NCBI GenBank assembly: GCA_937885575.1
Contig: CALABO010000016.1
Location: 4,392 to 68,391 of the forward strand
Direction: 5' to 3'
From: an uncultured Pseudomonadota bacterium
Lineage (GTDB): Bacteria; Pseudomonadota; Alphaproteobacteria; Rs-D84
Length of the DNA stretch: 64,000 bases
Shown piece by piece: positions 14,826 to 41,535 of the stretch; the first letter of the stretch is position 1, and each line of letters starts with the position of its first letter. The notes under the pieces were generated by a model that was given only the letters and a program-made list of their open reading frames with translations, ran no database searches and was not told the origin of the DNA. The position numbers were made by a program, and so were the translations under genes.

Positions 14826-14854
14826 ATTATATCAAAAAAAATTCCGCGGTGCAA
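14826..14854 (-). promoter_or_regulatory. Sigma70-like promoter TTGCAC-N17-TATAAT, 10 nt upstream of the amiC-like ATG (short or leaderless mRNA)
   Basis: Minus strand reads ttgcac cgcggaattttttttga tataat acccaccgaa ATG. Confidence 0.45.
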
Positions 14855-16308: not shown

Positions 16309-18114
16309 ATGTCAAAAAGGATATATGTGGACGCGGTCCACCCGGAAGAAACACGCGTTGTCGTTGTTGATTCCACCAATAATCGCGTTTCTGATTTTGA
16401 CGTTGAAACCACGACTAAACCCCAGATAAAAGGGAACATTTATCTGGCCAAGGTTATTCGGGTTGAACCGTCGCTTCAGGCCGCATTTGTTGATTACGGA
16501 ACGGGGAAGAATGGTTTTTTGCCGTTTTCGGAAATTCATCCGGACTATTACCAAATAACGCCGGAACAGAAAAAGAAACTTATCGAACTTGCGCATGCGA
16601 ACATCGTTGACGATGACGAAGACCCCGATGACGAGGGGGACGAAGTCGCCGACTATGACGATCATAGTGCGGGCGAAGACAACAAAGAATTTGCAAAACG
16701 CGCACGCGAATTCAAAATCCAAGATGTAATTAAACCAAAGCAAATCCTGCTGGTCCAAGGGGTCAAGGAAGAACGCGGACAAAAAGGCGCATCGATGACA
16801 ACATATTTGTCATTGGCGGGTCGCTTTGCGGTTTTGATGCCGAATTCGCGTAAACGCAACAGTTATGGTATTTCAAAAAAGATTTCAGACCGGCCGGAAC
16901 GCGCGCGTTTGCGTGAAATTTTGCACACACTTAAAATTCCAAAGGGCATGACGGTTGTTTTGCGCACGGCGGCAATGGGTGCAACGGCGGCGGAAATTTC
17001 GGCGGACTATGATTACCTGGTGAACCTTTGGAACGAAATTCGCAAGACCACATTGGAATCGGTTGCGCCGGTGATAATTCATACCGAAGATTCACTTTTG
17101 CGCCGTGTTGTTCGCGATTTTCTTTCGGACAAAGATGATATTTTAACCATCCAAGGCGAAGAGGCGTTCGAAGCCGCAAAAAATTATTTCCAACAAATGT
17201 ATGGCCACGCGCCACGGAAACAATTGGTCCTTTACAAGGATGATGCGGTGCCACTCATGGTCAAGGCCGGCGTTGAAAAACAATTGGAAGGATTGCATGG
17301 CCCGTATGTGCAATTGCCGTCCGGCGGTTCGATTGTTATAAATCAGACCGAAGCGATGGTGACGATTGATGTTAATTCTTCGCGCGCGATAAAGGAAAAA
17401 GACATTGAACAAACCGCACTGAATACCAATTTAGAGGCGGCGGAAGAAATCGCCCTGCAACTGCGCCTGCGCGATTTGGCGGGGATTGTAGCAATTGATT
17501 TTATCGATATGGAAGAAGAACGCAACAACCGCAAACTTGAAATGAAAATGCGCGAAATTATGAAGCATGACCGCGCCCGGACTCAGGTAGCAAAGATAAA
17601 TGCTTTCGGGGTTTTGATGCTGTCGCGTCAAAGATTGCGCAGCAGTTTTATCGAATCTTCGTATGTTGCGTGTCCGCACTGTATGGGTGCCGGCGTGGTG
17701 CCAAGTATTCAGACCGCGTCGATTATTCTGTTCCGGCACTTACAGGAAAAATTGCTGGCCAAGGCGGCACAGAAAATCATCATGACCGTGCCGACCGATG
17801 TCGCGATTTATATCCTTAATCACAAACGCGCGGAATTGAACGCGATGGAAAATGAATTTGGAACGGAAATTGTGGTTGTTGGCGATGACAGTTTGATGAA
17901 CATTGACCAATATTCGATTCAACGCGTTGCCCCGGAACAGGTAAAAACCGATGAAATCCTTATGGCGAACGCGCCGTCAACGGATGCGAAAAAGAAAAAC
18001 GCGCAACATGTAGAGGCGAAACGCACAACCATGAATGCGCCACATCGCACACGCAAACGCCAAAATCAAAAAGGTAAAAAGAAACCAAGTTTATGGCGAA
18101 AATTGGTCGGATAA
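16309..18114 (+). CDS. rne: Ribonuclease E/G family endoribonuclease (RNase E catalytic core with an acidic insert in the S1 domain), 601 aa
   Basis: N-terminus IYVDAVHPEETRVVVVD, S1 domain, DNase-I-like core (TIDVNS...), Zn-link CPHCMGAG. The acidic insert DDDEDPDDEGDEVADYDD is typical of alphaproteobacterial RNase E. Confidence 0.85.
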   Translation: MSKRIYVDAVHPEETRVVVVDSTNNRVSDFDVETTTKPQIKGNIYLAKVIRVEPSLQAAFVDYGTGKNGFLPFSEIHPDYYQITPEQKKKLIELAHANIVDDDEDPDDEGDEVADYDDHSAGEDNKEFAKRAREFKIQDVIKPKQILLVQGVKEERGQKGASMTTYLSLAGRFAVLMPNSRKRNSYGISKKISDRPERARLREILHTLKIPKGMTVVLRTAAMGATAAEISADYDYLVNLWNEIRKTTLESVAPVIIHTEDSLLRRVVRDFLSDKDDILTIQGEEAFEAAKNYFQQMYGHAPRKQLVLYKDDAVPLMVKAGVEKQLEGLHGPYVQLPSGGSIVINQTEAMVTIDVNSSRAIKEKDIEQTALNTNLEAAEEIALQLRLRDLAGIVAIDFIDMEEERNNRKLEMKMREIMKHDRARTQVAKINAFGVLMLSRQRLRSSFIESSYVACPHCMGAGVVPSIQTASIILFRHLQEKLLAKAAQKIIMTVPTDVAIYILNHKRAELNAMENEFGTEIVVVGDDSLMNIDQYSIQRVAPEQVKTDEILMANAPSTDAKKKNAQHVEAKRTTMNAPHRTRKRQNQKGKKKPSLWRKLVG

Positions 18115-18141
18115 AAAATTCCCCGTTTGGGGAATTTTTTT
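18113..18141. terminator. Bidirectional rho-independent terminator (A-tract, ttccccg-ttt-ggggaa, T7)
   Basis: Lies between convergent rne (+) and the lipoprotein gene (-). Confidence 0.7.
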
Positions 18142-18745
18142 ACTTCAATTCACTTATCACGTCGGCGATTTTGTATGATAATTTTGCAAGCAATTTACTT
18201 TGTGTGGCGACAATTGCGTCATAGTTCGGATAACTTGCGTCCAGTTCCGGGGTGTCCGCGGTTTGTGTCATTTTCTTTTGTGCGACTATGTCGCCACGAT
18301 TGTTGGTTAATGTCCACCATGCCGATATCGTAATTTTGCCATTGATTTCTGTTTCAAACCGGACAAAGTCCACCGACAAAATGTATTTTGCATTGCGCGC
18401 CTCAACTGAATTTTTTGTTGGTCGCGCGCTAATGTTTTTCGCATACATATTCATATTTTCAGAAATCACAACTGGTAACGAATTCGCGGGTTCATCGATC
18501 CAACGGTCAAATTCAGAAACCATCATCATGTTCGAATTTTTGTATTTCATAACAATTTGCGGGCGGTTGATTGATTGTGGCACGGTGACATTTTCAATCG
18601 CAACGGTTGTCACATGTGCGGGCCCACGAATTTGCGACACATCGGGCGCGGTAAATGTGTAAAACCGCGCGGGTTCACTGGTCCGCCAAAGCGTGCAGGC
18701 AGAAATCGCAAATGTTGCAACAATCAAACAAATATATTTTTTCAT
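18140..18745 (-). CDS. ABC-transport auxiliary lipoprotein (PqiC/YmbA, DUF330-like), 201 aa
   Basis: Lipobox ISAC; last gene of the mlaE-mlaF-mlaD cluster, the usual position of the DUF330 lipoprotein. Confidence 0.55.
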   Translation of the reverse strand: MKKYICLIVATFAISACTLWRTSEPARFYTFTAPDVSQIRGPAHVTTVAIENVTVPQSINRPQIVMKYKNSNMMMVSEFDRWIDEPANSLPVVISENMNMYAKNISARPTKNSVEARNAKYILSVDFVRFETEINGKITISAWWTLTNNRGDIVAQKKMTQTADTPELDASYPNYDAIVATQSKLLAKLSYKIADVISELK

Positions 18746-18746
18746 T

Positions 18747-19523
18747 TTAATATCCTCCTTTTCCTTTTAATAATGCCTCTGGGTGGCGTTCCAAATAATC
18801 GCTAAGCCGGGATACCGCACGTGCGGCCTCGCTAACGTCGCGAATCATTTTGTTAAAGTCCGACATTGTTGTCGTACCGGGCCCCGCAATCGAATCCGCA
18901 AGGCGATTTATACTAACCACCGCTTCGGTCGATTGGCGCATCAATGCCGGCATATCATCGTGCAGTTGCTGTAAAACACTGTTCACATTTGTTGATATAT
19001 CTGACAATGGAATTTTTTCAAGATTTTGCGAAATTTCATCAAACATCGACGGCACAGTTGGGATTTCAATATCTTCGATTCCGTACTTTTCCGCCTGGAA
19101 ACGCGGGGGATATTTCGGATAAAAATCAAGTTCGATTGTCATTTGTCCCGTCAAAACATTTTGCGTTTGCAATTTACCTTTTAATCCGTGACCAATTAAA
19201 TCGTTTATCCATTCTTTCATTTCCGAACGCGACATTTCGCCCTGCGCCGTCATACGCGGATCAATGCGGACATAGACGGGGATAACAATTTTATCTTCGT
19301 TATTTGGAATAAGTTGTATTTTTTCCACGTGTCCAATCGGCACGCCACGAAAGTAAACATTTGAACCAACCGACAGGCCCTTGACCGAACCTTCGAAAAA
19401 CAAAACCGGAGTCACATAATTGCGGTCAAACCGCCGGCCAAAAAAGAACACGACAGTTCCAATGATAATCAAAATGATTAAAAATATAAATCCGCCTATT
19501 GCGCGCCGCGATGGTTGTTTCAT
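18747..19523 (-). CDS. mlaD: MCE-family protein (MlaD-like substrate-binding component)
   Basis: N-terminal TM helix followed by an MCE domain (GSVKGLSVGSNVYFRGVPIGHVEKIQL). Confidence 0.8.
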   Translation of the reverse strand: MKQPSRRAIGGFIFLIILIIIGTVVFFFGRRFDRNYVTPVLFFEGSVKGLSVGSNVYFRGVPIGHVEKIQLIPNNEDKIVIPVYVRIDPRMTAQGEMSRSEMKEWINDLIGHGLKGKLQTQNVLTGQMTIELDFYPKYPPRFQAEKYGIEDIEIPTVPSMFDEISQNLEKIPLSDISTNVNSVLQQLHDDMPALMRQSTEAVVSINRLADSIAGPGTTTMSDFNKMIRDVSEAARAVSRLSDYLERHPEALLKGKGGY

Positions 19524-20305
19524 TTTTTACCCCCTTTGCATTTCGTTTCACGCGTCAGAAATTGTTTAATTTCCGTGTTTTTTGTCGTCTGTAAAATCTT
19601 TTGCGGCGCACCGTATGCAAGCACCGTTTTATTTCCGATATATACCGAATTTGTCGCTATTGACATTATTGATGACAATTCGTGCGTTACCAATACGATT
19701 GTTGTCCCAAATTTTTTGTTTATTTCAACAATCAAATCATCTAACTGCTTTGAACGAACGGGGTCAAGACCGGCGGATGGTTCATCGAAAAACAATGCAC
19801 GCGGATTCAACGCCATTGCCCGCGCAAGTGCCGCACGTTTTATCATGCCGCCACTTGCGTCCGCGGGAAAAATATTTTCGTATCCGGAAAGCCCCACAAG
19901 TTGAAGTTTTTTGTGAACTTCTTTGTTTATCTCTTTACGTGACATATTTGTTTTCATTTCCATTGGCAATGCAACATTTTCACCAAAGGTCATTGATGAA
20001 AACAACGCGCCACTTTGATACGACACCCCAAATGTTTCAATTATTTTTTCGCGCGCACGTTCCGACATTGCCCATAAATCTTGGCCGCCCACAATCACAC
20101 GACCCAACATCGGTTTATTTAGTCCAACAATCGAACGCATAATCGTGCTTTTGCCGCACCCCGACAATCCCATAATCACAAAGATATCGCCCGCGTTTAT
20201 ATTGAAATTCAGATTTTCCACAACGACGCGCCCGCCGTACCCCAGCGTTAGATTTTCGATACTGATAAAAGTCCCTGCACCTTTCCGCATCATATTCCCA
20301 ACCAA
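19520..20305 (-). CDS. mlaF: ABC transporter ATP-binding protein (MlaF-like)
   Basis: Walker A GLSGCGKST, ABC signature LSGGMIKRAALARA, Walker B FFDEP. Confidence 0.85.
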   Translation of the reverse strand: MVGNMMRKGAGTFISIENLTLGYGGRVVVENLNFNINAGDIFVIMGLSGCGKSTIMRSIVGLNKPMLGRVIVGGQDLWAMSERAREKIIETFGVSYQSGALFSSMTFGENVALPMEMKTNMSRKEINKEVHKKLQLVGLSGYENIFPADASGGMIKRAALARAMALNPRALFFDEPSAGLDPVRSKQLDDLIVEINKKFGTTIVLVTHELSSIMSIATNSVYIGNKTVLAYGAPQKILQTTKNTEIKQFLTRETKCKGGKK

Positions 20306-21138
20306 TTAAATACCAATGTTAATATCGCCGTTGCAACAACGCACCCGACAATCGCCATAACCACCGCGCGTGTTGTCGCCCGCCCTATTCCGGCCGCGTT
20401 CTTTTCGGCGCGCAGGCCACAGATGCAACCCGTTATCGCAATCACCCAACCGAAAATCCAACCGTGAAAAACGCCGACCGCAAAATTCTTGAAACTTATC
20501 CAATCAAGGGTTGTTTGCCAATATTCCGCGATTGAAACATTCATAATTGATATCGCAACACACATGCCACCAAATATCGCAACCACATCTGCAATAATGG
20601 TAAGCAATGGCATAGTTATCGTCAGGGCGATGACACGTGGCAAAACCAAAAATTCCATTGGTGAAATCCCCATGGTTTTCAGTGCATCGATTTCATCGTT
20701 CGCGCGCATCGATCCGATTTCCGCGGCATACGATGCGCCTGTGCGGCCGGCCATAATTATGCCCGTCATAATTGCACCAACAATACGCACCATGGAAATC
20801 GCAACAAGTGCCGCAACGTAAATTTCCGCGCCGAACATTTCCAATTGCATGTGGCCGACAAACGCGATGATTAAACCGATCATAAAACTTATCAGACACA
20901 CAATCGGTATCGCACGCAGGCCGGCGGCATGAATTTCAACCCACAAATCAACACGTCGCATGTCGCCGCGTCCGCGCAACATATAATACATTGCGCGAAA
21001 GACACGACACACAAATCTACAATTGTTATAAATGGATTGGCCGGTACGAACAGAAAAATCACCAAGACGCCCAAAGATATCATCTGGATCCCTGGGCGTT
21101 TGGTTTGGTTTTTTCAAATGATTTCTCCCCCCGTGCAT
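20290..21138 (-). CDS. mlaE: ABC transporter permease (MlaE-like)
   Basis: MlaE-family TM pattern and EIGSMRANDEIDALKTMGISPMEFLVLPRV. Starts 12 nt after the giant gene stop. Confidence 0.85.
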   Translation of the reverse strand: MHGGRNHLKKPNQTPRDPDDIFGRLGDFSVRTGQSIYNNCRFVCRVFRAMYYMLRGRGDMRRVDLWVEIHAAGLRAIPIVCLISFMIGLIIAFVGHMQLEMFGAEIYVAALVAISMVRIVGAIMTGIIMAGRTGASYAAEIGSMRANDEIDALKTMGISPMEFLVLPRVIALTITMPLLTIIADVVAIFGGMCVAISIMNVSIAEYWQTTLDWISFKNFAVGVFHGWIFGWVIAITGCICGLRAEKNAAGIGRATTRAVVMAIVGCVVATAILTLVFNWLGI

Positions 21139-21150
21139 ATGTCGTAATCC

Positions 21151-24100
21151 TTACCACATCTTGTATCCCGGTTTACAGGTTCGAACACATTTATTGGTGC
21201 GTTCATCCCAAACCTTGGTTCCGGTTTCATCGGTTTCGGTTTCACAAATCGAGACACATTCGCCATTTTGCAACGCGTACTTTTGCCCTTGGTACATGCA
21301 CGCGGCGATTTCGCATTCGGATACATAACTGCTGACCGCGACATCTTTATTCGGGTCACCATCAACATAACGGTTCGCGCATTCAACACAGGACTTGTAG
21401 TCGGAACTCGGTTCATATCCCGGATCACACTTTGTCACAAAGCATTCCCAAGAAGACGGTCCAACTTGTTCACTTTCGGCACTGCCGTGTGCAACGGTGC
21501 AGGTATCCCGGACACATGCGTTACCGGATTCATGGTACCCATTGGCCTCGTCACATTCAATGACCGTGCAGGGTCCGTATGTTCCGATCGCCGGGTTCCA
21601 AATGCGGGCCGCACTGGTCGCATTCGGGATTGAACATGCACGCGTATTGCTTACGCATTCGCCATGTTCAATATGTTCATCCTGTGCGCAACTGTTCGGA
21701 TCAATAAAGCATTCCTTTTTCGATGTTGCACCCGGCAAAGATGTCTTGCCATCCGGACAATCCTTGCAGGTCAGACCATCGTCACCGTATTGGCCGGCCG
21801 GGCATATCGTGCACGATGCGGTGCAATCGTTGTTAAAGTTGGAATCAGTGCAGGTAAGTTCTGGGTAACCATATCCCAGTTTACAGGTCGTTGGATTCCA
21901 ATTGCAGATATTGCCATTGTTCGACACAAATCCGCAACCAGAATTCACACCGTCACCATTGATTTCGCATTCGCAATCTGTACATGTACCGTTCACTTCG
22001 ACCTGTTTGTTTCCGCACTGCGTGCACGATGCAGTGCAACTTGTGGTATCGTCTGAACAATCCAACGTCGGGTTCACATAACCGGTCTGGCAACTTACCG
22101 GCCCCCATGCACATGTATCGTCATCGGTTGACAATGTTCCGCACGATGTTGTGCCGGTTCCGGCGGTGCAATTACATTGCTGGCACTGATTATTCAACGA
22201 TATCTTATCGGCCGCGCATTCGGTCCAATCTGCGGCAAGTACCGTTGCACCATCTGTTTTATAGGTGTATTCCGTACCAAGGTTTGCGTAACCACTATCA
22301 AACGTTCCCACACCACCAGATTCAACCGCCCATTGGGTCATTATATGACGCGGTTTGCGATAGTGTTCCGCACTCCAATCAAGCGTTGTGAACGGTGCAT
22401 CATATGTCACGGATTGTGTATAATTCTGATTTGGTGTTCCACCGTTCGGTTTATATGTGATACCGTTTTCATTTGGATATGTTTTTGCCACACACTTTTG
22501 TAATGTAGAATTCCATTCATATCCCGTATGACAGGTCACCACGCATTCGCCAGGATTTGGGATATCCAATGTGCAGTGATCTTCCGGCAAGCAATTATTG
22601 CAATATACCGCGCGGAAGTTTTTATCGGTTGTATAATTCCAAGTCACCGTATCACCGGCCGCGTGTATTTGTTGGTCGCCATCAAACTCCCACCCCGCGA
22701 ATGTGGAGTTCTCACGAGAACACCCATAAACCGTAGCATTTGCCTTGATTGTGTACGGTGTCCCATAACCCACAAGTTCACTAACTGGCGGAATGCCCGT
22801 ACCCGTACCACAATTGTAGATTGCATTGGATTGCGAAAGGGTGCAAATCGGTGCACAGTTTGTTCCGTTGCATTCGCATCCACCGTATATATAACCATCG
22901 GGGCAGCTTTCCTCGCTCGCATTGCACGCACATTCGTTGGAATTTGTGGCATATGTCGTGCAACCATCCGCATCGCATGTGCACTGTGCCCATTGTGCCG
23001 ACAGTGTTGTATCGGTTGCGTCATTATAGACATAATTACCCGAAAGTGTCGCGGTCCCGTTTGTGAACGTGCTGCTTGACCCGGATTCAACGTTCCAATG
23101 TGTCATGATATGATTGGTATATGTGAATCGTGTGCCGCCCTCGGTCGTGAATGATTGACCATAGTAAACACCTTGGTTATATGTTTCATTCGTACCGTTG
23201 TTTGACAGGTAATGTATGGTATGTGCACCCGGTACGCATGCATCAGCCGATGAAGAACCCGCCGGCGATGTGTATCCGTTCTGACACGGCACACAAGTAT
23301 TACCCGATTGATATGTGTTCGCCGGACAAATTTCACATTGGCAATTTTCATTAGACACCCAACCATCACCGCATTCATTATAACTTACGACACAGTTAGT
23401 ATCATTGCATACAACATTCGCGTTTCCGTCCTCATTTCCGTAACCCACCAAGCACTGACCAACCGCAGTACAGGTATTGTTCGCTGTGGCACCGGGTGTG
23501 CAAGATGCGGCACCATTACCAGTCGTGCATGTACATGGTATGCATTCACCATTGACGATTACTTCGCCCTCTTGGCATTCGCCACATGTCAATGTACAAT
23601 TCGTGTTACCCGTTCCCGTACATTGCATATTCGGTGAAACATAGCCATCCTGGCATACTGGGTTTGTCCAGTTACAAGTATTGCCGGCGGTAGATAATGT
23701 TCCGCACGATTCCGCGCCAGTGCCAGTCGTGCATTCGCACGATTCCCAATGCGCATCCAACCAGGTATCGCCCGCAGTATTATACTGATACCAATGATTC
23801 AATTCCGGATAAGCACCACCCGATACTGTATCCCATACCGTGATAATGCTGTTAGTTTTGCTAAATATAGTGCCCTGCTTTGTCACAAATCCACTATTAT
23901 ATGTCACATTTTGGATTACAGGTTGATCTGTTACACCAGTTGCTGTATTTACGCCACCGGCTGCTTGGTATGTGATTGTGTATGGATTACCGTTGCCATA
24001 ACAATCTTCGATCGATGTTGAACCCGCAGGCGATGTATAACCTTCTGGGCAACTCTCACATTCGAGACCATTCGGTCCATATGTCCCAGCTGGACACACC

Positions 24101-27100
24101 TGGCACTTTACGGTGCAAGATTGATTGCTACTACCTTCGCAGATAATGTTCGGATAACCGTATCCCAAACCGCATGTCGCCGGTCCCCAGTTACACATAT
24201 TATCACTGATAGACATTGTCCCGCACGATACAGCGCCCGTTGTAGTGTCAGGCGTGCATCTGCAATCCGTACAATCGCCGCTCACTTCAACTTGATTGGC
24301 AGGGCAGATACCACAAGATGCGATGCAACTTGTATTGCCTGTGCCTGTGCAATTCCATGCAGGATTCACAAAGCCGGTCAAGCATGCCACAGGATGCGTC
24401 CATTCGCATGTATTGGAAATGGTTGACAAAGATCCACATGATGTATTTGTCGCCCCTGTGCCAATTGTACAGTTACACTTGACACAATCATTTCCAATTA
24501 ATATTTCATCCGATGCGCACTGAATATTAGTATATTCTGCGGTGAATGTTTGGTCAGATGTATAATTCCATGTGATACGGTCACCAGCCTGGTGCAATTG
24601 ACCATCACCATTGAACCGCCACCCTGCAAAGTTAAATCCGGTCTTTTGACAATTTGCGCCACCTTCATTCTTTACAGTATAATCGGCATCATATTCGGCC
24701 GTATCTGTGGCGGTTACCGGCATACCCGTTCCGTCACCACAATCATAGGTTATATTTGATGTGATCGGATTACATACAGCGGCCGGAGTATACGCCGTTG
24801 GCTGATCCAGTTCGTATCCAGTGTCGCACCAATTTATATAAGCGCATGTATCATTCGTCACAATCGGTGTACACCCAGCAACATGCGGATTTAACGGATT
24901 AATACACTGGCATTGATTCCATTGTGCCTTAATCTTGTGAGTGGATATTCCACTGTACACACCGACATTGTTGTATGTGCACATTACGTTTGTTCCGGCC
25001 GAGTACAAATCATTACCCGTGGCCAATTTCCACCCAAGGAATTGCATAGCATTGTTGTTATGCGTCGGTGCCGCCGCCAAGGTCAGATTGTTTGCCGGAT
25101 GTGTGCCACATGATTCACAGGCCGGAGATGTGCAGCCATTGCCATCGACACAGAATTGGCAACTGCCGTTCTGGTCAATCGGATTCCCGCCGTTTTCGTC
25201 CCAATCGACGGTTATCGTTTCTCCATAACATGATGTTGCGGCCACCCCTGATGTAAAGCCATTATCACAAGATTTACATTCGTTGCCGTCCTGATATGTG
25301 CCGGGCTCGCATTGCCGGCAAGATGCATTACAATTTGTATTGCATTCGCCGGTACATGTCGGCAATTCGTTTGGAACATATCCAGGCATGCAGGTAACGG
25401 TCGGGACACAGGCATTATTCACAACGGACACCGAACATCCCTGGACCCCGGTTCCCGATGTGCATTGGCACGCCACCCAATCGGCCAACAAGGTTGTATC
25501 GTTTTCATTAAGGTAAGTGTATTCCGTCGAAAGTTCCGCCACCCCATCTGGGAATGTATAGGTGGTTGCGTTACTAACCCAACGGCAAAGCACTTCGCCA
25601 CTCTTACTAAACGTGTCGCCACCAAGTGTTGTGAATGTTTCATTCAGTCTCAAACTTTGTGTTCTGGGCTGGGTCGGTGTTCCGCCGTTTGGTTTATATG
25701 TCAACGTGAACCGTGGATCTGGTGACAGGACGCAACTGCAACTGTTTGTGTCCCAAGTATAATCGTTGTTGCAATTGATTGTGGCAACGCAACTGTTCAC
25801 AGTGCAAGAACCATTAGCGATACCGTTTGCGGGGCACCCTTCGCACCAATGGGCATACCATGTCACATCATTATTTATTGGTGTTCCCGGTTGAACCTGT
25901 TGCCCGCCCGTCGCGTCGGTCCACCAACCCACAAAGTTATATGTCACACCACACGCATCACGTGTCGGATCGATCGGCCATTTGTCTGTTCCAACCTGAC
26001 TCGCATTCCAGTGGGCATACCACGTGGCGTCGGTTGTATAGCCCTTGCCATCATCCATACCATCCTGGGTAATATAACTCTTTAGTTGCCCGCCAACCGA
26101 CCGTGCGTCTGTGTACTGGGTGACACCAGATGCCGTTTTATAGTATCCATTGAACGTTAGGTTAACGCCCCTATCCGTGATGGTTGCACCATAGCAATTC
26201 GGATCATCATTATCACAATGATTGAATGTTGCGGTAACAACACAATTCGGCAACTTATCTACCGATAATGGATGGTCGGATATAGTCATCAGGTATTGAT
26301 TTGTCCGCGCAGGATTCAGGTACACACCGGTATTTTCGGTTGTATAGAGCTTTTCCTGGCCTGGTGTTACATCACCCCCGCAATTCGCATCCAATGTGAT
26401 TTCATGGTCAGCCAATTTTGTACACTGAACCCCAACATCGGTGCTTAGGTAGTAATCCGGCGTATAACCAGGTTTGCACATGATTGTAAACGGTTCACAA
26501 TATTGCGTTGACGGAACATCATGCACACATTCATTACTGCCATAATACTGTGCCCCCGATACCGAAGATGTTAATTGCGGATAAACACAGGTAAGAACTC
26601 CCTCCTCATTAGGACAATCCGACACCGGTTGTGTGCACGGGATTTCGACATTGCATGTTTTGTAACAATGTTGTGGTGATGTCGCATTTATGTTGGAATG
26701 GTCGTATCCCGTCGGGCATGTCTTGCAAGAACCGTCAAAATACGATCCATCTGAACATTCTTTATAATGTGCATTGAGCGTTGGATTATCGTCTGTGAAA
26801 ATCCACAAGATCGAATCACCCGGCCAATATGTGTTAGAATTCAAATTGAATTTCCAATTTTCGAATTCATGTGCCCTTGTCGTTTCCGTGGCCGGTTTTG
26901 AACAAGGTATAAAGTTTTCACGCACAGTGTATGATGTATTCTGGTATGCAAGTTGATTGTCGGTCGCACTGCCACCCTGACCATCTTCACTGTTGCAATT
27001 ATATGTCACCGTATATGACTTGCCAGACCAATGTGCACACAATGTACGATCACCGGAAACCGCTATGGTTTGATTACCCATGGACACAAGCGCCCCACCG

Positions 27101-30100
27101 TCGCATGCGTTCCACCAACCGGCAAATGTGTAGCCATCGCGGCTCATGATGTCTTCGCCAGGTAAATCGACACTGCCATTCAGCCATCTTGCCTGCCATG
27201 TCTGGTTGTTTTGCGCAGTAGTACCGATACTCTGACCTGCACCTGTAATGTAACGGTTTATGCCAATTACTGGATCAATCTCTGCACCAGTGGTGTCATA
27301 AAAACCATCAAACACAAAATCAACATTATCCGATAATTGTCCACCATACATGTCATGCCAATTAAACATTGCGCCATTACCATTAAGTGTCACCGTGGCA
27401 TATGTACTTGGCGTCCCAGATTCCAACGGATAATCATTCGGTGTCATCATGTATGTTCGGTTATAATCGCGGTAAACGCCATGATTGAACCACGTATAGA
27501 GTGTCGATGGATTCGCCAATGTTCCATTATCATTATAAAGATTCGAATTCAGCGCGATAGTATATCTGTTGTCACGGCATTCGGTTCCAACAAGGTCATA
27601 ACCGTTGTTACAGATTATGTCATTAGGACAAATTGGTAAACTTTGTTGACCTTGTGGCAAACATGTTGCACCAGGGCGATTGTATTTTATGCCCCATTGT
27701 GGATAATCCGAATGGTTTGGTGCGCAAGATTGCATGCCAACTGGCAATGGGCTTGGGCAACCCGAATCTTGGCAATCATATTCGCAGTTGCCATAACATT
27801 GTTCCGCACCAATTGCATGTGGGTTATCGGTGAAACCGTCTGGGCATGGATAGCATTTGTTACCGTCCCAGTATTCGCCCTGCTCGCATTGACTCCAATC
27901 CGGTTCCCATACTTGGTTATTATCAGTTAACACTGTGGGGTCTGGCAATCTCCATTGCCCGTTACTCACATAGCCCATCTGGACATCATTATACTTATAT
28001 CCTGCAAAAACATACCCTGAACGTCTTGGCAATTGTGAACCGGATAATCTTGTAACATTGAACGGCCCATTTGCAGTATATCCCCATCCATTATCATATT
28101 TTTCATACAAAATTTCTATCCCGGGTTCTGTTGCATCCGTTTGAGCCAAAGTCACATAATACACATTTCCATTATTCCAATCCGGGGTAAAGTCTTCATT
28201 GGCGTAAACATCACTCCATGTTGCCGTATATTCGGTATCACGCGCGGTGAATGTTGTGTTGTGGTTGCCCATCCAGCTAGTAAATGTATAACCCGCGTTT
28301 GAACATGCCGATGTCGGTGGAACCCGAACAGTGCCGCCATTCTGAACAGATTGGGTGTAATTCGGTAACGGATCTTCACCCGCGCCGCACCTGAATGTGA
28401 TTGTAAATGGACCCGTTGGACGGCCACACCGTGCATACCACGTATGGTTATTATCCGTATAATTGGGTTCCTGTTCTACACGGCCATCTGGACGAATCAC
28501 CCTATCACCACCACTTAATGCATCATAGTAGCCCTTGAATTCATATCCCGCGTTCGGTGTTGGCAGTTCATCATCGGTTAACGTCAAATTCGGATCAAAT
28601 GTTCCGGTTGCGGCCCGATTCCAACCAACATTGTATTTTTCATACAATTTTGTTGGTGTGTTATTGGATGGTTGACAGTTATTTCTGTCTGACACTAATT
28701 TTACTTCGTATATCACATCAGACCAATGTGCATACACAGTCATATCATTGTTCACCAAAGAACTTGAATCCACTTGGTTGCCCCCCATGGGTAAATCATA
28801 CCATCCATCAAATACAAAACCCGGGCGTGTTGGCACTGGTAAATCATTCCCAGACGAACTTATCGTCCCCAGTGTCCGCGATTGCCACCGGGCGTGCCAT
28901 GTGGCATCATCGGTATATCCCGTGCCAGCGGCTATACCACTTCCGTTAATATAACCATCGACATCTATATAACGTGGTGAACCATTCACAGATTTCCAGA
29001 AACCTTGGTAATCAAATAGAACATTCGCGTCCATGCTGCCCATGTACGTTTGACCATTCCAAATCAGTGATGCACCTTGACCATTAAGGTTAAATGTCAC
29101 GATTGCATAATTTAGCGGATTTTCGCTAAGCGGGTTCTGGTTCGCCCTCATTTCACCCGTATAATTGGAATACAAATACACCCCACGGTTATGCCAGGTA
29201 TATAAAACTTCTGGATCACTGCTCACCCCATGTATTATATGCGATTCTAATGTGATGGTGTGTTTTTCATCTTCCACACAACTCTGACCATCCTGGGCCG
29301 GAACCCAACCAAGGTCACAGTCCGTAATCATATACGGGCAATTCGGCGTCGGATTAGTGTTCGAAACACAGGTCTGTGTTCCATTGTTGTATTCTTTGCC
29401 ATTATTTTGAACACTTGGATCATTTGGATTGTATACACAATTCGCACCATGAACCGTTGGACATCCATTGGTCAAACAGATTGAACAAATCTTATAACAC
29501 TGATTCACGTTCGTCGCATTCGCATCAGCTAAAGGATACGCGCCACCTGTTGCATCACTGCAACTTTTGCAAACGCCATTATCCCAGTACTGACCGGCCG
29601 CACACGGTCCCCACTGAGCATCCCAGGTTTCATTTGCTGATATACTTGCCGGCAATGCCCAATTTGCACCACTAAAGTTTCCTCTCTGTGCCTGGGTTGT
29701 GCTATCCAACCATCCGTTAAAGTTAGACCCTTGTTTGGTTGGCAAAGAATCACCCGGTATAGATGTAATCTGTGTCGTTAACCCGGCATTCTTGTACCAC
29801 CCTAGGTCAACCGCGTACCATAATTCTTGATATTCGTTTGACGGGAACATTCCGCCGTTCTCGTTCAAATCCACATGATATACCGCCTTGGTATCCGGGA
29901 CAAAAACTTCATCAAAACAATGATTCCATGCAAAATATGAACCGGCATCAAGAAGAATTTCAGGATGTGTGGATCCCTTCCATTGATTGAATGCAACCCC
30001 AGAACACACCGTTGCCGCCGGGGCGGTTAAGTTAGCATCCCCCATATGCACCGTATAAGTATATATGTCGCCACCATTTGCACTGCATCTGAATTTGATG

Positions 30101-33100
30101 GTAAATGTGCCTGGATTATCAATATACTGTGCATACCATTTTTGGTTATTATCAGTAATGGTTGTGGATGGCAGTGGTTGATAACCATCTGAACTCACAT
30201 AACCGTCTGCCTGAATCATTTGTTGCCCGCCACTCCGTCTGTTAAAGTATCCTTTAAATACTTTGCATGTTTCTGATGGGGATGGTAATTCATCAGGATC
30301 CAAGTTCAGAGAAGATGTAAATCTGTTATCGGTCCTGGACCAACCAATTGTATATTTTTCAAACAGTTTGCTGACAAAGTTTGAACCTTCTATACCATTA
30401 TTACTATCCAATGTTACATAGTATGTATTCCATTCGCAAGTGTTGTTTTCCCAATGCTGGTATTCTGGGCAAATTGGGTCTTGTGTCGGATCCACATTAC
30501 ATGTTTGTGGAGTTATCGTGGCATCTGTCATTGGATTAAGACAGGCATTCGGATCATACTCTGGGACATATCCGGTTTGGGCCGCCGGATTACCTTCAAG
30601 ATACCAACATGTAGCACCCGCCGGATACTGTGGTGTTGGACACTGTGCCGGATTTGCCGGATAACCAGCCCACGTACAAGGCACCGGGCAAGACGGACGA
30701 CATTTACCAAGGGATGGGACATATATTTGACCCGCCTCGCATTGACCATAACTTGCCGTGAAAATCGGAGTAATGTTACAATAATTCCATGAATTAATCA
30801 TATAGTTCGAAGTTCCGGGATAATATACCTGGTTATTGCCATTGAATGTCCAACCATTGAATAACTGATCGTTTGATTGACAAGTTATTGTCGTTCCGTT
30901 GGATTCCACATAATATGGTTCGCCGTATGTTGCCTGGGTTCCGGAAAGTGTCCCAGGGGCGGTACTGGAATCGCATCTGTAATAAACATCATACTCTGTC
31001 GCGTTGCAACTAACGTTATTCAACACGCTTGCATCACCGATTGAACCATTGACGGTGAATATACCTCCGTTAGTGGCGCTGTTGTCATGTGTATAACAAG
31101 TGTAATTGTTATTATTACAGCCGGTACACGCTTCGCACTTAAGGGTATATATACATTCTGTTCCATTGCTATTGAGTGCGCCACTTACAAAAGTTGCGTG
31201 CGCATTGTTTGGTAATGTTCTTGCCGGGCATAGTTCAGATGCATTTGGCACGCAAACACCATTTTCCAAGTTATACCCGCTCTCACATCCCCACCATGCA
31301 TAGTAATCCTTGTCACCACAATCCGTGTTGCTTATTACAGGATTTTGCGTACACCCGGCGGTCAATTCCGGATTCGTGCACCATCCATTGAATACCTTGT
31401 GCGAACCGGCTTGCGGCGTTATCGAACAATTGATAGCGAACGCATTACCAAAGGTATAACTTGTCGTTGAACACCCACTGTATATCGCATTACCATTATG
31501 ATATGTGATGCTATAAGTACCAGGTGTCCAATGAGCATACAAATTCGTTGTTGCGCCCGTTGGTGTATACGGCATATTGGCATTTCCGGCCGATACCCCA
31601 TTGTACATATCTGTCCACCAACCGTTAAATGTATAACATTGACGTTGGGCATCAGGTAATGTTATTGAACCATCCTGCCACTGGGCGTGCCAAACAGTTG
31701 AATTACTCTGATTTTGTTGCGCCGCGATGTTACCATTGGTGCTAATATAACCAGTATCAAATATATATTGGCTTCCGCCATATACCGAAGGATAAAAACC
31801 TTGGAAATCGAACGTCGCCGTTAATGTGGCCGTAGAACTAGAATAACCATTCCAGATAACATTACCGCCATTTCCGTTTAGGATTACATCCGCCGATTTT
31901 TCAGGTACGGCATACAACGACTGCTCATCATTCATCAGATACACATAACCATTATCCAAATACGCCCCGCCATTTGGCCCATATTTTGTATAAAGGACTT
32001 CTGGCGAACTGGCGTGACCATTGAAACCATCAATATGACTATTCAAAGTTATCATATAATTGTTCGGAACGCACGCGGTGTTATTACCATTTGGTGTATA
32101 ACCAGGCAAACAATGAAGAACCGTTATCGGGCAATTTTGTTCATAATTTGGCTGACATGTGCCCGTTCCTGGATAATACAAATTACCATTCATGTTCGAA
32201 TTATTTCCAAATTCGCAATAATTGACCCCTTCGGTTTGTGGGCAAACCGGGGTGCAAATCGAACATTGCCTGTAACATTGATATATGCTTGTTGCATTGG
32301 CTTCCCCAAGAGGAAAATCCCCATTCGTTGCCGTGTTACACGTTACACAGACCCCGTTGTTCCAATATTCATTAGGGTTACACTGGCTCCATATCGCACA
32401 CCAATCTTCATCGTTTTGAATCAGTGTTGCAGGTGACACCGACCATATTCCACCGATGTTACGCACACGCGCATCGCCCGCAAGATTGTTGTACCCAACA
32501 AAAGTCCACCCGCTACGTGTTGGCAATTGTTGCGTGGTAAGTTCCGTGATCGGATTTGAAAGGGTTCCGCCAACATTTGTTCTGTACCAGTTAACACCAT
32601 ATTTTTCCCATAATTCTTGAACACCAGAATTACCAAATGTGCCTGTTTGGGTTGAATCGTCGCAAGAATATGCATGCAAATTTACATGATACACGTTGCC
32701 GTCATTCCAATCTGCGATAAATGTTTCACCATGAGTCTGTTCCCACGGATATTGATATGTAGAACTCTGCGCATTAAGTGTGGTGGGGTGATTACCAGTT
32801 GTCGTAGCTTTCCACCGGCTATACGAATACCCAGGGTTGTTCGTGCAAGCCGAATTTGATGGAACAGTTATATTTTCACCATAATGCACGGTTTGTGAAT
32901 CTACTATCGGATTTCCGCCCTCTTCACAGATGAACTTGATAGTGTATGTTTGGTTCGAATCCGGAATACAGTCATTGGCATCGTTATTCCAGATATATCC
33001 AGTGGTACAATTTGGTGTGTAACGACAAGTGCTCGCGGTTATCAGATCGCAATTTTCCGTCTTACGACACTTTGTAATAGATTCCGTAGGTTCGTAGTAC

Positions 33101-40731: not shown

Positions 40732-40755
40732 ATTTTCTCCCTTTCATTTACTTTC

Positions 40756-40784
40756 ATCTTAGAAAAAACAAAAATTTAAGGCAA
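40756..40784 (-). promoter_or_regulatory. Putative sigma70 promoter of the giant gene (TTGCCT-N17-TAAGAT) with an A/T-rich UP region
   Basis: Minus strand reads ...aaaaaaaagcaactattttttc TTGCCT taaatttttgttttttc TAAGAT gaaagtaaatgaaAGGGAGaaaatATG. Confidence 0.4.
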
Positions 40785-40845
40785 GAAAAAATAGTTGCTT
40801 TTTTTTATTTTTTTTTTGACATTTTTTTGCGAATTGTTATGCGGA

Positions 40846-40915
40846 TTTTTAGTGGGTAGTGTAAGTGTTAGTCCCGCCTTCGCTAAAGCTACGGCGAGGC
40901 AGGGGTTAGTGTTTT
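40846..40915. repeat. Copy or fragment of the dispersed GTGTTAGTG-type repeat (tttagtgggtagtgtaagtgttagt...cgctaaagctacggcgaggcagggg)
   Basis: Similar to 14935..15035 and to the arms at 41380..41535 and 55353..55455. Confidence 0.5.
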
Positions 40916-41178
40916 TTGCCGTCCCCCCGCTGAAAATTTGTATGTGAGAACGAGCATAAGCGAAGTTCGAACAACTACAAATTTGCGCGCAGGGCTGTAA
41001 GCCGAGCGAAACGCGGGGTCTCGTCGGGGTTGCAGTGAGTGGGACCGCGACTTGCTCGGCGAGATCCCGCATGAAATCACCCACGCCAAACTTCGTTTTG
41101 CGCGGGGCCCAATACTGCGAGATGACAGGAAAAAAGACCACCCCGGCCTTCGGCCACCCCTCCACAGGAGGGGAACTT

Positions 41179-41209
41179 AAAAAAAAACACGCCGTGCAAG
41201 CACGGCGTG
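41179..41209 (-). terminator. Rho-independent terminator for tRNA-Met (cacgccgtgc-aa-gcacggcgtg followed by T9 on the minus strand)
   Basis: Perfect 10-bp GC-rich stem with a T9 tract on the tRNA strand. Confidence 0.7.
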
Positions 41210-41269
41210 GGTGATTTTTCAATTATAATTGAGAAATCTCTATCACATCTTTGCGTTCGCAAAGACGGA

Positions 41270-41346
41270 TGGTGGGTTATGTAGGACTCGAACCCACGAC
41301 CAAAGCGTTATGAGCGCTCCGCTCTAACCAACTGAGCTAATAACCC
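41270..41346 (-). tRNA. tRNA-Met (anticodon CAT; elongator type or tRNA-Ile2)
   Basis: Reverse complement reads gggttattagctcagttggttagagcggagcgctCATaacgctttggtcgtgggttcgagtcctacataacccacca. The anticodon stem is not GGG/CCC, so it is not the initiator. Confidence 0.8.
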
Positions 41347-41379
41347 AACGCGCGCATTATTACATAGTTCTTTTTTCGA

Positions 41380-41535
41380 TGCAAGGAAAAAGTGGGGAGT
41401 GGTAAGTGTTAGTGGGTAGTGTTAGTGGAAAGTCTCTAGAGGGGAACTTTGCGCGCTGGAATAACCACGTAATTACGGATTTATTCCAGAACCTAATAAC
41501 CACTTACACTAGCCGCTAACACTTTCCACTAAGGT
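41380..41535. repeat. MITE-like element of about 155 bp: inverted GTGTTAGTG/CCACTTACACTAA arms flanking a nested-palindromic core (ctctagaggggaactt...ctggaataaccacgtaattacggatttattccag)
   Basis: Left arm agtggtaagtgttagtgggtagtgttagtggaaag. Right arm (reverse complement) ccttagtggaaagtgttagcggctagtgtaagtgg. The core is about 70% identical to the core at 55381..55420. Confidence 0.6.

What the first reader, a model, noticed from the sequence alone, without database searches (positions are those of the whole stretch)
20290..21153. The giant gene stops 12 nt before mlaE and is co-oriented with the mlaE-mlaF-mlaD-lipoprotein operon
The giant ORF's stop codon (TAA, 21153..21151) is separated by only ggattacgacat from the mlaE ATG (21138), with no terminator or promoter-like sequence between them. 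MlaE, MlaF, MlaD and the DUF330 lipoprotein follow with overlapping or abutting codons. This implies co-transcription of a 19.6-kb adhesin-like gene with an outer-membrane lipid-asymmetry (MCE) transporter. Either there is a functional link (envelope remodelling to accommodate or display the giant protein), or the giant gene inserted between the mla promoter and operon.
Basis: seen in the sequence. Interest (0 to 1): 0.55.

Follow-up and report, generated by a model that had tools for sequence, protein, structure and literature searches.

The report
Giant gene fused to lipid-transporter operon
In this small-genome gut bacterium (Candidatus Enterousia), an old deletion removed the terminator of a 19.6-kb surface-protein gene and the promoter of the lipid-transporter operon behind it, so both now appear to be read as one 22.7-kb message; this is a clean example of operon fusion, not proof that the two work together.

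Summary
A 6526-aa ORF (21151..40731, minus strand) ends in TAA 12 nt before the mlaE ATG (21138). mlaE, mlaF, an MCE gene and a PqiC-like lipoprotein gene follow with overlapping or abutting codons.

Comparison with 128 related loci supports co-transcription and shows how the arrangement arose.
- In deeper Rs-D84 lineages the giant gene is monocistronic. It has a conserved promoter and, in 29 of 43 cases, an intrinsic terminator just after the stop. The mla-type operon lies about 3.7 kb further on, behind an opposite-strand gene, with its own TTGACT-type promoter.
- In the Enterousia clade the terminator, the intervening genes and that promoter are gone (0 of 18 terminators). What remains is a 6-19 nt spacer, exactly 12 nt in the window's subclade. 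Its sequence varies, but a ribosome-binding site overlaps the giant gene's stop codon.
- Three relatives lack the giant ORF at this position. All three have a giant-type promoter, not the mla-type one, directly before mlaE.

The transporter is a Mla-Pqi chimera like Brucella Mpc, not a classical Mla system. A functional link between giant protein and transporter is neither shown nor excluded: 10 of 26 informative loci have the giant gene without mla nearby. No RNA data were available. Moderate interest.

The parts
40756..40784 (-). P_giant: the promoter of the giant gene. TTGCCT, a 17-nt spacer ending in TTTTTTC, then TAAGAT, preceded by an A/T-rich tract.
   Evidence: Read. The motif TTGC-N8-14-T5+-N1-3-TAnnnT occurs 4 times in the window against 0.34 expected. 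It lies upstream of the giant-family gene start, where that start is visible, in lineages of both clades. It scores 8 of 12, below the threshold of the generic scan.
21151..40731 (-). Giant ORF of 6526 aa. It has a Sec-type signal peptide, Listeria-Bacteroides repeats, 5.3% Cys, and is rich in N, T and G.
   Evidence: (PF09479: 51.4 and 93.9 bits against a cutoff of 27).
21154..21633 (-). Conserved Cys-rich C-terminal domain of 160 aa, ending in GYKMW.
   Evidence: Alignment A2. 230 representative clusters match among 1.84 billion proteins; in nearly all of the 150 listed matches the domain lies at the extreme C-terminus of the protein, which is often 1000-6300 aa long. The AF2 model has pLDDT 68, and no PDB fold match reached E <= 0.001.
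21139..21153 (-). Junction: stop codon TAA plus the 12-nt spacer. The Shine-Dalgarno-like AAGGA (21152..21148) overlaps the stop codon and lies 9 nt before the mlaE ATG.
   Evidence: Spacer length is constant at 12 nt in 12 related loci while the sequence after GGA varies. More distant clade members have 6-19 nt spacers with AGGAG- or GGGG-type SD sequences.
20290..21138 (-). mlaE/mpcE-like ABC permease, 282 aa, with no STAS domain.
   Evidence: PF02405, E 1.4e-68. TIGR00056, 215.6 bits against a cutoff of 212.2. Alignment A1.
19520..20293 (-). mlaF/mpcF-like ABC ATPase. It probably starts at ATG 20293, overlapping the mlaE stop as ATGA.
   Evidence: best NCBIfam hit MlaF, 177.8 bits, below the equivalog cutoff of 441. 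Orthologues are 254-257 aa.
18747..19523 (-). Single-MCE protein with a C-terminal helical extension (PqiB/MpcD-like).
   Evidence: PF02470. The best NCBIfam hit is PqiB, profile positions 278-504, E 2.6e-27. The best PDB relative is PqiB 5uvn, E 2.6e-17. The AF2 model shows a TM helix at 6-29, the MCE domain at 40-134 and helices at 160-246.
18140..18745 (-). PqiC/MpcA-like outer-membrane lipoprotein (PF03886, former DUF330), with a lipobox ...AISAC.
   Evidence: PF03886, E 4.9e-20. Weak NCBIfam pqiC hit. Lipobox read in the sequence.
18120..18134 (-). Intrinsic terminator closing the transcription unit. It is a bidirectional hairpin followed by a T run.
41188..41346 (-). Upstream boundary: tRNA-Met (41270..41346) and its strong terminator (41188..41209), which insulate P_giant from upstream transcription.
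   Evidence: The same tRNA-Met, terminator and promoter order is seen in L009, L011, L012, L013 and L091.

Best explanation
The giant surface-protein gene and the four transporter genes form one transcription unit of about 22.7 kb, created by a deletion in the ancestor of the Candidatus Enterousia clade.

Proposed mechanism:
- Transcription starts at the giant gene's own promoter (40756..40784).
- It runs through the 19.6-kb ORF and meets no terminator at its end.
- It continues through mlaE, mlaF, the MCE gene and the lipoprotein gene.
- It stops at the hairpin at 18120..18134.
- mlaE is translated from a Shine-Dalgarno sequence (AAGGA) that overlaps the giant gene's stop codon.

Proposed history. 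Ancestrally the giant gene was monocistronic, with its own promoter and terminator. The transporter operon had its own TTGACT-type promoter about 3.7 kb downstream. One deletion, consistent with the genome reduction of this lineage, removed four things: the terminator, a flavoprotein gene, a hydrolase gene with the opposite-strand ybaK-like gene, and the transporter's promoter.

What is shown and what is inferred. The anatomy, the conservation and the comparative states are shown. The direction of change and the read-through itself are inferred. No specific functional coupling between the two products needs to be assumed.
For: 1. Anatomy. The genes share a strand, with a 12-nt spacer, overlapping or abutting downstream genes, a terminator only after the last gene and another before P_giant.

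2. Terminator loss. None of 18 giant genes that abut mlaE has a hairpin plus T run within 75 nt of the stop. 29 of 43 giant-family genes elsewhere do (sequences).

3. Outgroup state. The order is giant, terminator, HI0933-like flavoprotein, alpha/beta-hydrolase, ybaK-like gene on the opposite strand, then mlaEFD-lipoprotein. A conserved TTGACT-N17-18-TATAAAAT or CAATAT promoter lies in the roughly 100-nt ybaK-mlaE spacer. None of those three genes is found in the window or in any clade member.

4. P_giant belongs to the giant gene. The motif is found upstream of giant-family genes in more than 20 loci, including ones with no mla nearby.

5. Natural deletion experiment. L012 and L013 are sister to L092, which has the fused arrangement. 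Together with L010 they lack the giant ORF at this position and carry a P_giant-type promoter, not the TTGACT type, directly upstream of mlaE. In L012 and L013 it sits at the same place after tRNA-Met and its terminator.

6. No alternative promoter.
- Sigma-70-like hits inside the ORF number 51 against 51.0 +/- 7.4 expected, and the nearest sense-strand hit is 1.9 kb upstream of mlaE.
- A very relaxed TTG-N19-21-TAnnnT search of the last 900 nt in 15 fused loci found 4 hits in 3 loci. Only two of them lie within 3 nt of each other, so no site is conserved across the clade.

7. Translation signal. The spacer length is fixed at 12 nt while its sequence varies, and the conserved GGA/AGGAG overlaps or adjoins the stop codon.

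8. Context. Ca. Enterousia genomes are under about 1 Mb (PMC12306168).

From established knowledge (Salgado et al. 2000; Moreno-Hagelsieb and Collado-Vides 2002): same-strand gene pairs less than about 20 nt apart are overwhelmingly co-operonic.
Against: - No transcript data of any kind were available.
- A 19.6-kb leader gene is an awkward way to express a housekeeping envelope transporter. A weak or non-sigma-70 promoter inside the ORF cannot be excluded by motif scans.
- The tree is a neighbour-joining tree of two proteins, midpoint-rooted, without support values. The polarity of the change therefore rests on parsimony across lineages.
- L010's promoter sits in a different upstream context. 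A second promoter of similar architecture exists in the window at 14826..14854. Its homology to P_giant is therefore less certain than for L012 and L013.
- A suspected remnant of the giant signal-peptide coding region in the 5' leader of L012 and L013 was not above chance.
Confidence: 0.72

Rival explanations
1. Functional module. The giant secreted protein and the Mpc-type lipid transporter are kept in one operon because they work together. For example, the giant protein attaches the cell to a host or neighbouring cell or membrane, and the MCE system imports lipids that this organism cannot make. Selection for co-expression keeps the fusion.
For: - The fusion has persisted across substantial divergence: MlaE 67-95% identity and giant C-terminal domain 48-81% identity.
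- The giant gene and the mla operon stay within about 4 kb of each other in the sister clade. In L019 and L024 they stay close despite an inverted arrangement.
- Rs-D84/Enterousia genomes are reported to lack lipid, amino-acid and nucleotide biosynthesis (PMC12306168).
- From established knowledge: MCE systems import lipids in mycobacteria (Mce1, Mce4) and chloroplasts (TGD).
- The giant protein has a Sec signal peptide and no recognisable outer-membrane export or anchoring module. How it is handled in the envelope is therefore open.
Against: - 10 of 26 informative giant-family loci have no mla operon within 10 kb downstream.
- In the sister clade the two are separate transcription units, with a terminator, unrelated housekeeping genes and an opposite-strand gene between them.
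- L010, L012 and L013 keep the operon without the giant gene at this position.
- Most mlaE loci of other gut Alphaproteobacteria show no giant-family gene within 10 kb.
- The neighbourhood is fully explained by inherited synteny followed by deletion.
Confidence: 0.18
2. Independent expression. Despite the 12-nt spacer, the transporter genes are mainly transcribed from an unrecognised promoter inside the 3' part of the giant ORF. The giant transcript ends or is processed before mlaE.
For: - Very long operon leaders are prone to premature or Rho-dependent termination (established knowledge).
- One unconserved relaxed promoter-like match lies 410 nt upstream of the stop in the window.
- The promoter rules of this lineage are only partly known. 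P_giant itself scores only 8 of 12 against the sigma-70 consensus.
Against: - No promoter-like site is conserved across the clade in the last 900 nt of 15 fused loci.
- There is no enrichment of sigma-70-like sites in the ORF.
- There is no terminator or stable structure at the junction.
- Synonymous positions in the last 90 nt vary freely between orthologues.
- When the ORF was lost, mlaE ended up directly behind a P_giant-type promoter in all three giant-less relatives. That is expected if this promoter already supplied the operon.
Confidence: 0.1
3. Assembly or annotation artefact: a chimeric contig or a wrongly called mlaE start creates an apparent 12-nt junction.
For: Giant repetitive genes often break or mis-join metagenome assemblies. 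L004, L006 and L003 show contig ends or a 100-N scaffold gap inside the gene.
Against: - The same junction is recovered in at least 17 contigs from independent samples and assemblers.
- The mlaE start is conserved in an 18-sequence alignment.
Confidence: 0.01

Closest known systems
Brucella abortus MpcEFDA (Mla-Pqi chimeric lipid transport system; Lannoy et al., EMBO J 2025, PMC12436622)
   Same: It is a four-gene operon in the same order: MlaE-like permease, MlaF-like ATPase, a single-MCE protein with a C-terminal helical extension resembling the end of PqiB, and a PqiC-like (PF03886) outer-membrane lipoprotein. The operon contains no MlaC or MlaA. Both organisms are Alphaproteobacteria.
   Different: - The permease here has no N-terminal STAS (MlaB-like) domain: 282 aa, with the Pfam match covering residues 68-275 only.
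- The MCE protein is shorter (258 against 331 aa).
- The operon has no promoter of its own and sits 12 nt behind a 19.6-kb gene.
- Function here is untested.
Escherichia coli MlaFEDB-MlaC-MlaA (maintenance of outer-membrane lipid asymmetry)
   Same: It has an MlaE/MlaF-type ABC core and an MCE-domain partner.
   Different: - The MlaD equivalog model is not met (21.4 bits against a cutoff of 135).
- There is no MlaB, MlaC or MlaA in the operon.
- The outer-membrane partner is PqiC-like.
- The MCE protein carries a helical needle.
Large secreted Listeria-Bacteroides-repeat (PF09479) proteins, and giant surface proteins of reduced-genome or episymbiotic bacteria
   Same: It has a signal peptide, PF09479 repeats and a highly repetitive N/T/G-rich sequence, and it takes up about 2% of a genome of roughly 1 Mb or less.
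   Different: - It is extremely Cys-rich (5.3%).
- It carries a lineage-restricted 160-aa C-terminal domain ending in W that has no Pfam or NCBIfam model and no PDB fold match.
- The family has its own conserved promoter.
Operon formation by deletion of intervening DNA (a classical model of operon evolution; read-through fusions in reduced genomes)
   Same: Two formerly separate transcription units are joined by loss of a terminator, the intervening genes and the downstream promoter. Both the ancestral and the derived states are visible in relatives.
   Different: The upstream partner is a 19.6-kb gene, so the downstream operon depends on a very long read-through. A later deletion of the giant ORF in some relatives shortened the leader again.

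Membership tests
Single transcription unit (operon) giant-mlaE-mlaF-MCE-lipoprotein | Same strand, with intergenic distances of a few nucleotides or overlaps | tested here: met
   The spacings are a 12-nt gap, a 4-nt overlap, a 4-nt overlap and a 1-nt gap.
Single transcription unit (operon) giant-mlaE-mlaF-MCE-lipoprotein | No terminator and no promoter between the genes; terminators at the outer boundaries | tested here: met
   Terminators occur after 0 of 18 fused giant genes against 29 of 43 elsewhere. Motif scans cannot exclude unconventional promoters.
Single transcription unit (operon) giant-mlaE-mlaF-MCE-lipoprotein | Adjacency conserved in related genomes | tested here: met
   It is conserved within the Enterousia clade (MlaE 67-95% identity). 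It is not conserved outside that clade.
Single transcription unit (operon) giant-mlaE-mlaF-MCE-lipoprotein | A transcript spanning the junction | not testable with these tools
   No RNA data were available.
Mpc-type (Mla-Pqi chimeric) MCE transporter | Gene order: E (permease), F (ATPase), D (MCE), A (lipoprotein) | tested here: met
   PMC12436622.
Mpc-type (Mla-Pqi chimeric) MCE transporter | Single MCE domain followed by a C-terminal helical needle resembling the end of PqiB | tested here: met
   NCBIfam PqiB, profile positions 278-504, E 2.6e-27. PDB 5uvn, E 2.6e-17. The AF2 model has helices at 160-246, but pLDDT there is only 45-68.
Mpc-type (Mla-Pqi chimeric) MCE transporter | PqiC-like (PF03886) outer-membrane lipoprotein in place of MlaA | tested here: met
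   PF03886, E 4.9e-20. The NCBIfam pqiC hit is weak (22.6 bits, below cutoff). A lipobox is present in the sequence.
Mpc-type (Mla-Pqi chimeric) MCE transporter | STAS (MlaB-like) domain fused to the N-terminus of the permease, as in Brucella MpcE | tested here: not met
   The protein is 282 aa and only PF02405 matches, at residues 68-275. More distant homologues of about 370 aa carry PF13466.
Mpc-type (Mla-Pqi chimeric) MCE transporter | No MlaC homologue in the genome | not testable with these tools
   Only 64 kb of the genome is available.
Canonical Mla lipid-asymmetry system | MlaD equivalog (a short MCE protein without a needle) | tested here: not met
   TIGR04430 scores 21.4 bits against a cutoff of 135.
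Canonical Mla lipid-asymmetry system | MlaE-family permease and MlaF-type ATPase | tested here: met
   TIGR00056 scores 215.6 against 212.2. MlaF is the best ATPase hit but falls below the equivalog cutoff.
Listeria-Bacteroides repeat (PF09479) surface proteins | PF09479 repeats above the gathering score, plus a signal peptide | tested here: met
   51.4 and 93.9 bits against a cutoff of 27. The N-terminus reads MKKFARFLGFLGFFATLATAQIGSVWA. The adhesin function itself was not tested.

The most novel reading that the evidence does not exclude
The giant Cys-rich secreted protein and the Mpc-type MCE transporter form a lipid-scavenging module in an obligately dependent bacterium with a genome under about 1 Mb that cannot make its own lipids. 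The giant protein contacts a host or neighbouring membrane, or forms an extended envelope structure. Its conserved C-terminal domain docks at the PqiC-like/MCE bridge that imports lipids. Single-promoter control is the selected outcome, not an accident of deletion.
Probability: 0.12. Interest if true: 0.75.

Novelty: new variant of a known kind. Interest (0 to 1): 0.36.

Why it matters
First, this is an unusually well-documented natural case of operon birth by deletion. Relatives preserve the ancestral state, the fused state and a secondarily shortened state. The lost parts can be named: a terminator, three genes and a promoter.

Second, the envelope lipid transporter of Candidatus Enterousia turns out to be a minimal Mpc-type (Mla-Pqi chimeric) system. 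Its expression appears to depend on the promoter of a gene that takes about 2% of the genome.

Third, the work defines an undescribed family of large or giant secreted proteins in the order Rs-D84. The family has its own conserved promoter and a conserved C-terminal domain.

If the co-expression proves functional, it would point to how these lipid-auxotrophic gut bacteria acquire membrane lipids.

Tried and rejected
1. Remnant of the giant signal-peptide coding region in the 115-nt leader of L012 and L013. It looked plausible in the MAFFT alignment. Local alignment scores were not above 1000 shuffles: 98 to 541 shuffles reached the observed score. Rejected.

2. L003 as a pseudogenised giant gene, since the gene calls showed only a 299-aa product. 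The break is a 100-N scaffold gap, and the frame is open on both sides. Rejected.

3. Word-indexed protein search with the C-terminal 200 aa. It returned only 7 hits and missed the known giant orthologues. It was replaced by a metagenome locus scan and an exhaustive HMMER search.

4. Structure of the C-terminal domain. The AF2 model has pLDDT 68 and pTM 0.37. Foldseek against the PDB gave no hit at E <= 0.001, only weak resemblances to EGF-, TNFR- and Fn1-like disulfide-rich modules. No assignment was made.

5. Alternative mlaE start at TTG 21117, behind GGGGGGAGA. It is not conserved as a start codon; the orthologues have TTA. Rejected.

6. Rfam scan of 18000..42000 at E <= 0.1. It found only the tRNA, so there is no known riboswitch, leader or sRNA at the junction or upstream of the giant gene.

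7. Long internal repeats within the giant protein. None were found at E <= 1e-20.

8. Literature. No paper links a giant gene to MlaE. The one Enterousia paper examined does not mention giant proteins, adhesins or Mla.

Full report
**1. What is in the window**

On the minus strand a 19,581-nt ORF (21151..40731; 6526 aa) ends ...AAG ATG TGG TAA. It is followed by ggattacgacat and then the ATG of a 282-aa MlaE-family permease at 21138.

The genes downstream are tightly packed:
- The ATPase gene starts at an ATG that overlaps the mlaE stop (ATGA, 20293).
- The MCE gene overlaps the ATPase gene by 4 nt.
- The PF03886 lipoprotein gene follows after 1 nt.

A hairpin with a T run closes the unit at 18120..18134. 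Upstream of the giant gene lie a tRNA-Met (41270..41346) and a strong terminator (41188..41209).

The mlaE start is supported in two ways. Eighteen homologues all begin at the same alignment column. The alternative in-frame TTG is not conserved.

**2. What the genes are**

The giant protein has several recognisable features:
- a Sec-type signal peptide;
- Listeria-Bacteroides repeats (PF09479, above the gathering score in both halves);
- 5.3% cysteine.

Its last 160 residues form a conserved Cys-rich domain ending in W. An exhaustive HMMER search finds this domain in only 230 representative clusters out of 1.84 billion. In nearly all of the 150 listed matches it lies at the extreme C-terminus of the protein, which is often 1000-6300 aa long. 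It has no Pfam or NCBIfam model and no significant PDB fold match.

The transporter is not a classical Mla system:
- The MCE protein fails the MlaD equivalog model (21.4 against 135 bits). [quoted passage not shown]
- Its model shows a TM helix, one MCE domain and about 90 residues of helices.
- The lipoprotein is PqiC-like.

This architecture and gene order match the Mla-Pqi chimeric MpcEFDA system described in Brucella abortus (PMC12436622). Two differences stand out: the permease here lacks the STAS domain, and the MCE protein is shorter.

**3. The organism**

The closest genome record is a Candidatus Enterousia MAG, with 93% MlaE identity. This genus belongs to the order Rs-D84 of the Alphaproteobacteria. 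Its genomes are under about 1 Mb, and it is reported to lack pathways for lipid, amino-acid and nucleotide biosynthesis (PMC12306168). The giant gene therefore takes up about 2% of the genome.

**4. Comparative anatomy, starting from mlaE**

I fetched 80 species-representative loci around mlaE homologues and several metagenome contigs. The upstream states are as follows.

| Loci | MlaE identity to window | State upstream of mlaE |
|---|---|---|
| All loci at 78% or more | >=78% | Giant ORF ends exactly 12 nt before mlaE |
| L009, L011 | 67-70% | About 2000-aa homologue ends 9 nt before mlaE |
| L012, L013, L010 | 67-74% | No giant ORF upstream |
| L014, L016-L018 | 62-63% | Homologue ends about 3.7 kb upstream |
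| L019, L024 | 52-53% | Same gene block, with the mla operon inverted |

In the L014 group the interval between the homologue and mlaE holds an HI0933-like flavoprotein gene, an alpha/beta-hydrolase gene and an opposite-strand ybaK-like gene.

**5. Comparative anatomy, starting from the giant gene**

A metagenome scan with the C-terminal domain gave 42 further loci:
- 7 have mlaE abutting the giant gene.
- 9 have mla 3-4 kb downstream on the same strand.
- 10 have at least 10 kb of downstream sequence and no mla.
- The rest are too short to judge.

The giant family is therefore not obligatorily linked to the transporter.

**6. Signals that changed**

Four lines of evidence bear on which signals were gained or lost.

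(a) A distinctive promoter lies upstream of the giant-family gene start, where that start is visible, in lineages of both clades, including loci with no mla nearby. It reads tatttttc-n-c TTGC, then N12-13 ending in TTTTTTTC, then TAnnAT, followed by an AGAGGA-type ribosome-binding site and a signal peptide. In the window it is at 40756..40784. The motif is rare: 4 hits in the window against 0.34 expected.

(b) Giant genes that do not abut mlaE are followed within 75 nt by a canonical intrinsic terminator in 29 of 43 cases. Giant genes that do abut mlaE have one in 0 of 18 cases.

(c) In the sister clade, the roughly 100-nt spacer between the ybaK-like gene and mlaE carries a different, conserved, near-consensus promoter (TTGACT-N17-18-TATAAAAT or CAATAT). 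Nothing of it remains in the 12-nt spacer here.

(d) The flavoprotein, hydrolase and ybaK-like genes are absent from the window and from every fused locus.

**7. Direction of change**

A neighbour-joining tree of MlaE plus MlaF separates two clades:
- a fused clade: the window group, L003, L009/L011/L089-L091, L092, L010 and L012/L013;
- a separated clade: L014-L018 and L102-L124.

The monocistronic, terminator-bearing giant gene also occurs in deeper lineages (L019, L024, L096-L101, L116). Mpc-type operons with their own promoter are the norm elsewhere. By parsimony the fusion is therefore the derived state: one deletion of about 3.7 kb in the ancestor of the Enterousia clade.

The tree is midpoint-rooted and has no support values, so this polarity is an inference.

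**8. A natural experiment**

L012 and L013 are sister to L092, which has the fused arrangement. They lack the giant ORF, yet they keep the order PIF1-like helicase gene, tRNA-Met, terminator, P_giant-type promoter and then mlaE about 115 nt downstream. L010 has a promoter of the same type about 25 nt before mlaE, in another upstream context.

None of the three has the TTGACT-type promoter. This is what one expects if the operon was already being supplied by P_giant when the ORF was deleted. It is not what one expects if the operon relied on a promoter inside the 3' end of the ORF.

A suspected remnant of the signal-peptide coding region in the L013 leader did not pass a shuffle test, and I do not use it.

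**9. No sign of an internal promoter or a stop at the junction**

- Sigma-70-like matches inside the ORF are at the chance level: 51 against 51.0 +/- 7.4. The nearest sense-strand match is 1.9 kb upstream of mlaE.
- A very relaxed search of the last 900 nt in 15 fused loci found 4 matches in 3 loci and no site conserved across the clade.
- Synonymous sites near the 3' end vary freely.
- The junction RNA is unstructured relative to shuffles.
- Rfam finds nothing there.

**10. Translation of mlaE**

In the window's subclade the spacer is always 12 nt, although its sequence differs from locus to locus (GGATTACGACAT, GGATTGTAATGC, GGACAGAATCAC, TGGGGATTTCAT and others). The conserved part is the G-rich element, which together with the stop codon reads TAAGGA or TAGTGGGGA. 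More distant members have TAGGAGATA-ATG and TAGGAGAA-ATG.

Constant spacing with variable sequence is the signature of a Shine-Dalgarno-to-start constraint. mlaE is therefore initiated from a site that overlaps the end of the giant ORF. This is typical of co-transcribed genes and is compatible with translational coupling.

**11. Verdict**

Co-transcription is the best-supported reading, at about 0.7, on comparative and sequence evidence only.

The cause is most likely an operon fusion by deletion during genome reduction, not an insertion of the giant gene behind the mla promoter.

A true functional partnership remains possible: a giant secreted protein plus a lipid bridge in a lipid auxotroph. 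It would be the interesting outcome. The present data are fully explained without it, and several lineages separate or lose one partner.

The case is a new variant of known things (an Mpc-type operon; operon fusion) and not a new kind of system.

Noticed in passing
window 40849-40867, 41396-41428, 41500-41532 (inverted): Short repeats of the CACTAAC / ACTTACAC type flank the tRNA-Met gene and lie upstream of the giant-gene promoter. Similar ACTAACCACT strings occur in the same intergenic region of L009 and L091 and upstream of another promoter in L001. They could be a dispersed repeat or a regulator-binding site.
   Followed up: partly
window 14826-14854 (-): A second promoter has the same unusual architecture (TTGC, a T run, then GATATAAT). 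It lies before the 396-aa gene and is conserved in L001, L005, L007 and L087. The architecture may be a lineage-typical strong promoter class.
   Followed up: partly
window 21154-21633 (-) and 230 representative protein clusters: The 160-aa Cys-rich C-terminal domain ends in an invariant W. It is restricted to a small set of proteins, many of them large or giant, and has no Pfam model and no PDB fold match. It may be a sorting, anchoring or docking module.
   Followed up: partly
window 40732-41187 (-): The spacer between the tRNA terminator and the giant-gene promoter is about 450 nt long, G+C-rich and apparently non-coding. It contains a second hairpin with a T run at 41133-41151. The window also has an MFS transporter gene (41516-42721) between the PIF1-like helicase gene and tRNA-Met; L009, L011, L012 and L013 lack it. 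Rfam finds nothing there.
   Followed up: partly
L100 5994-6482 and 13489-13953; L112 4453-4938 and 6471-6950: Some related genomes carry two convergent giant-family genes, so the family can be multi-copy.
   Followed up: no
L001 13051-14868; L003 13062-15056: An extra 605-664-aa gene with no Pfam hit lies between the lipoprotein gene and the RNase G gene in some close relatives. It is absent from the window.
   Followed up: no
window 21151-40731 compared with L009, L011, L091, L003, L001 and L005: The giant gene varies about threefold in length between related species: about 1900-2100 aa in L009, L011 and L091; at least 3000 aa in L003; 6300-6526 aa in the window group. The promoter, signal peptide and C-terminal domain stay conserved throughout.
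   Followed up: partly
window 19520-20305 (-): The mechanical ORF list starts mlaF at TTG 20305. The ATG at 20293 forms ATGA with the mlaE stop and gives the 257-aa length seen in orthologues, so it is the likelier start.
   Followed up: yes
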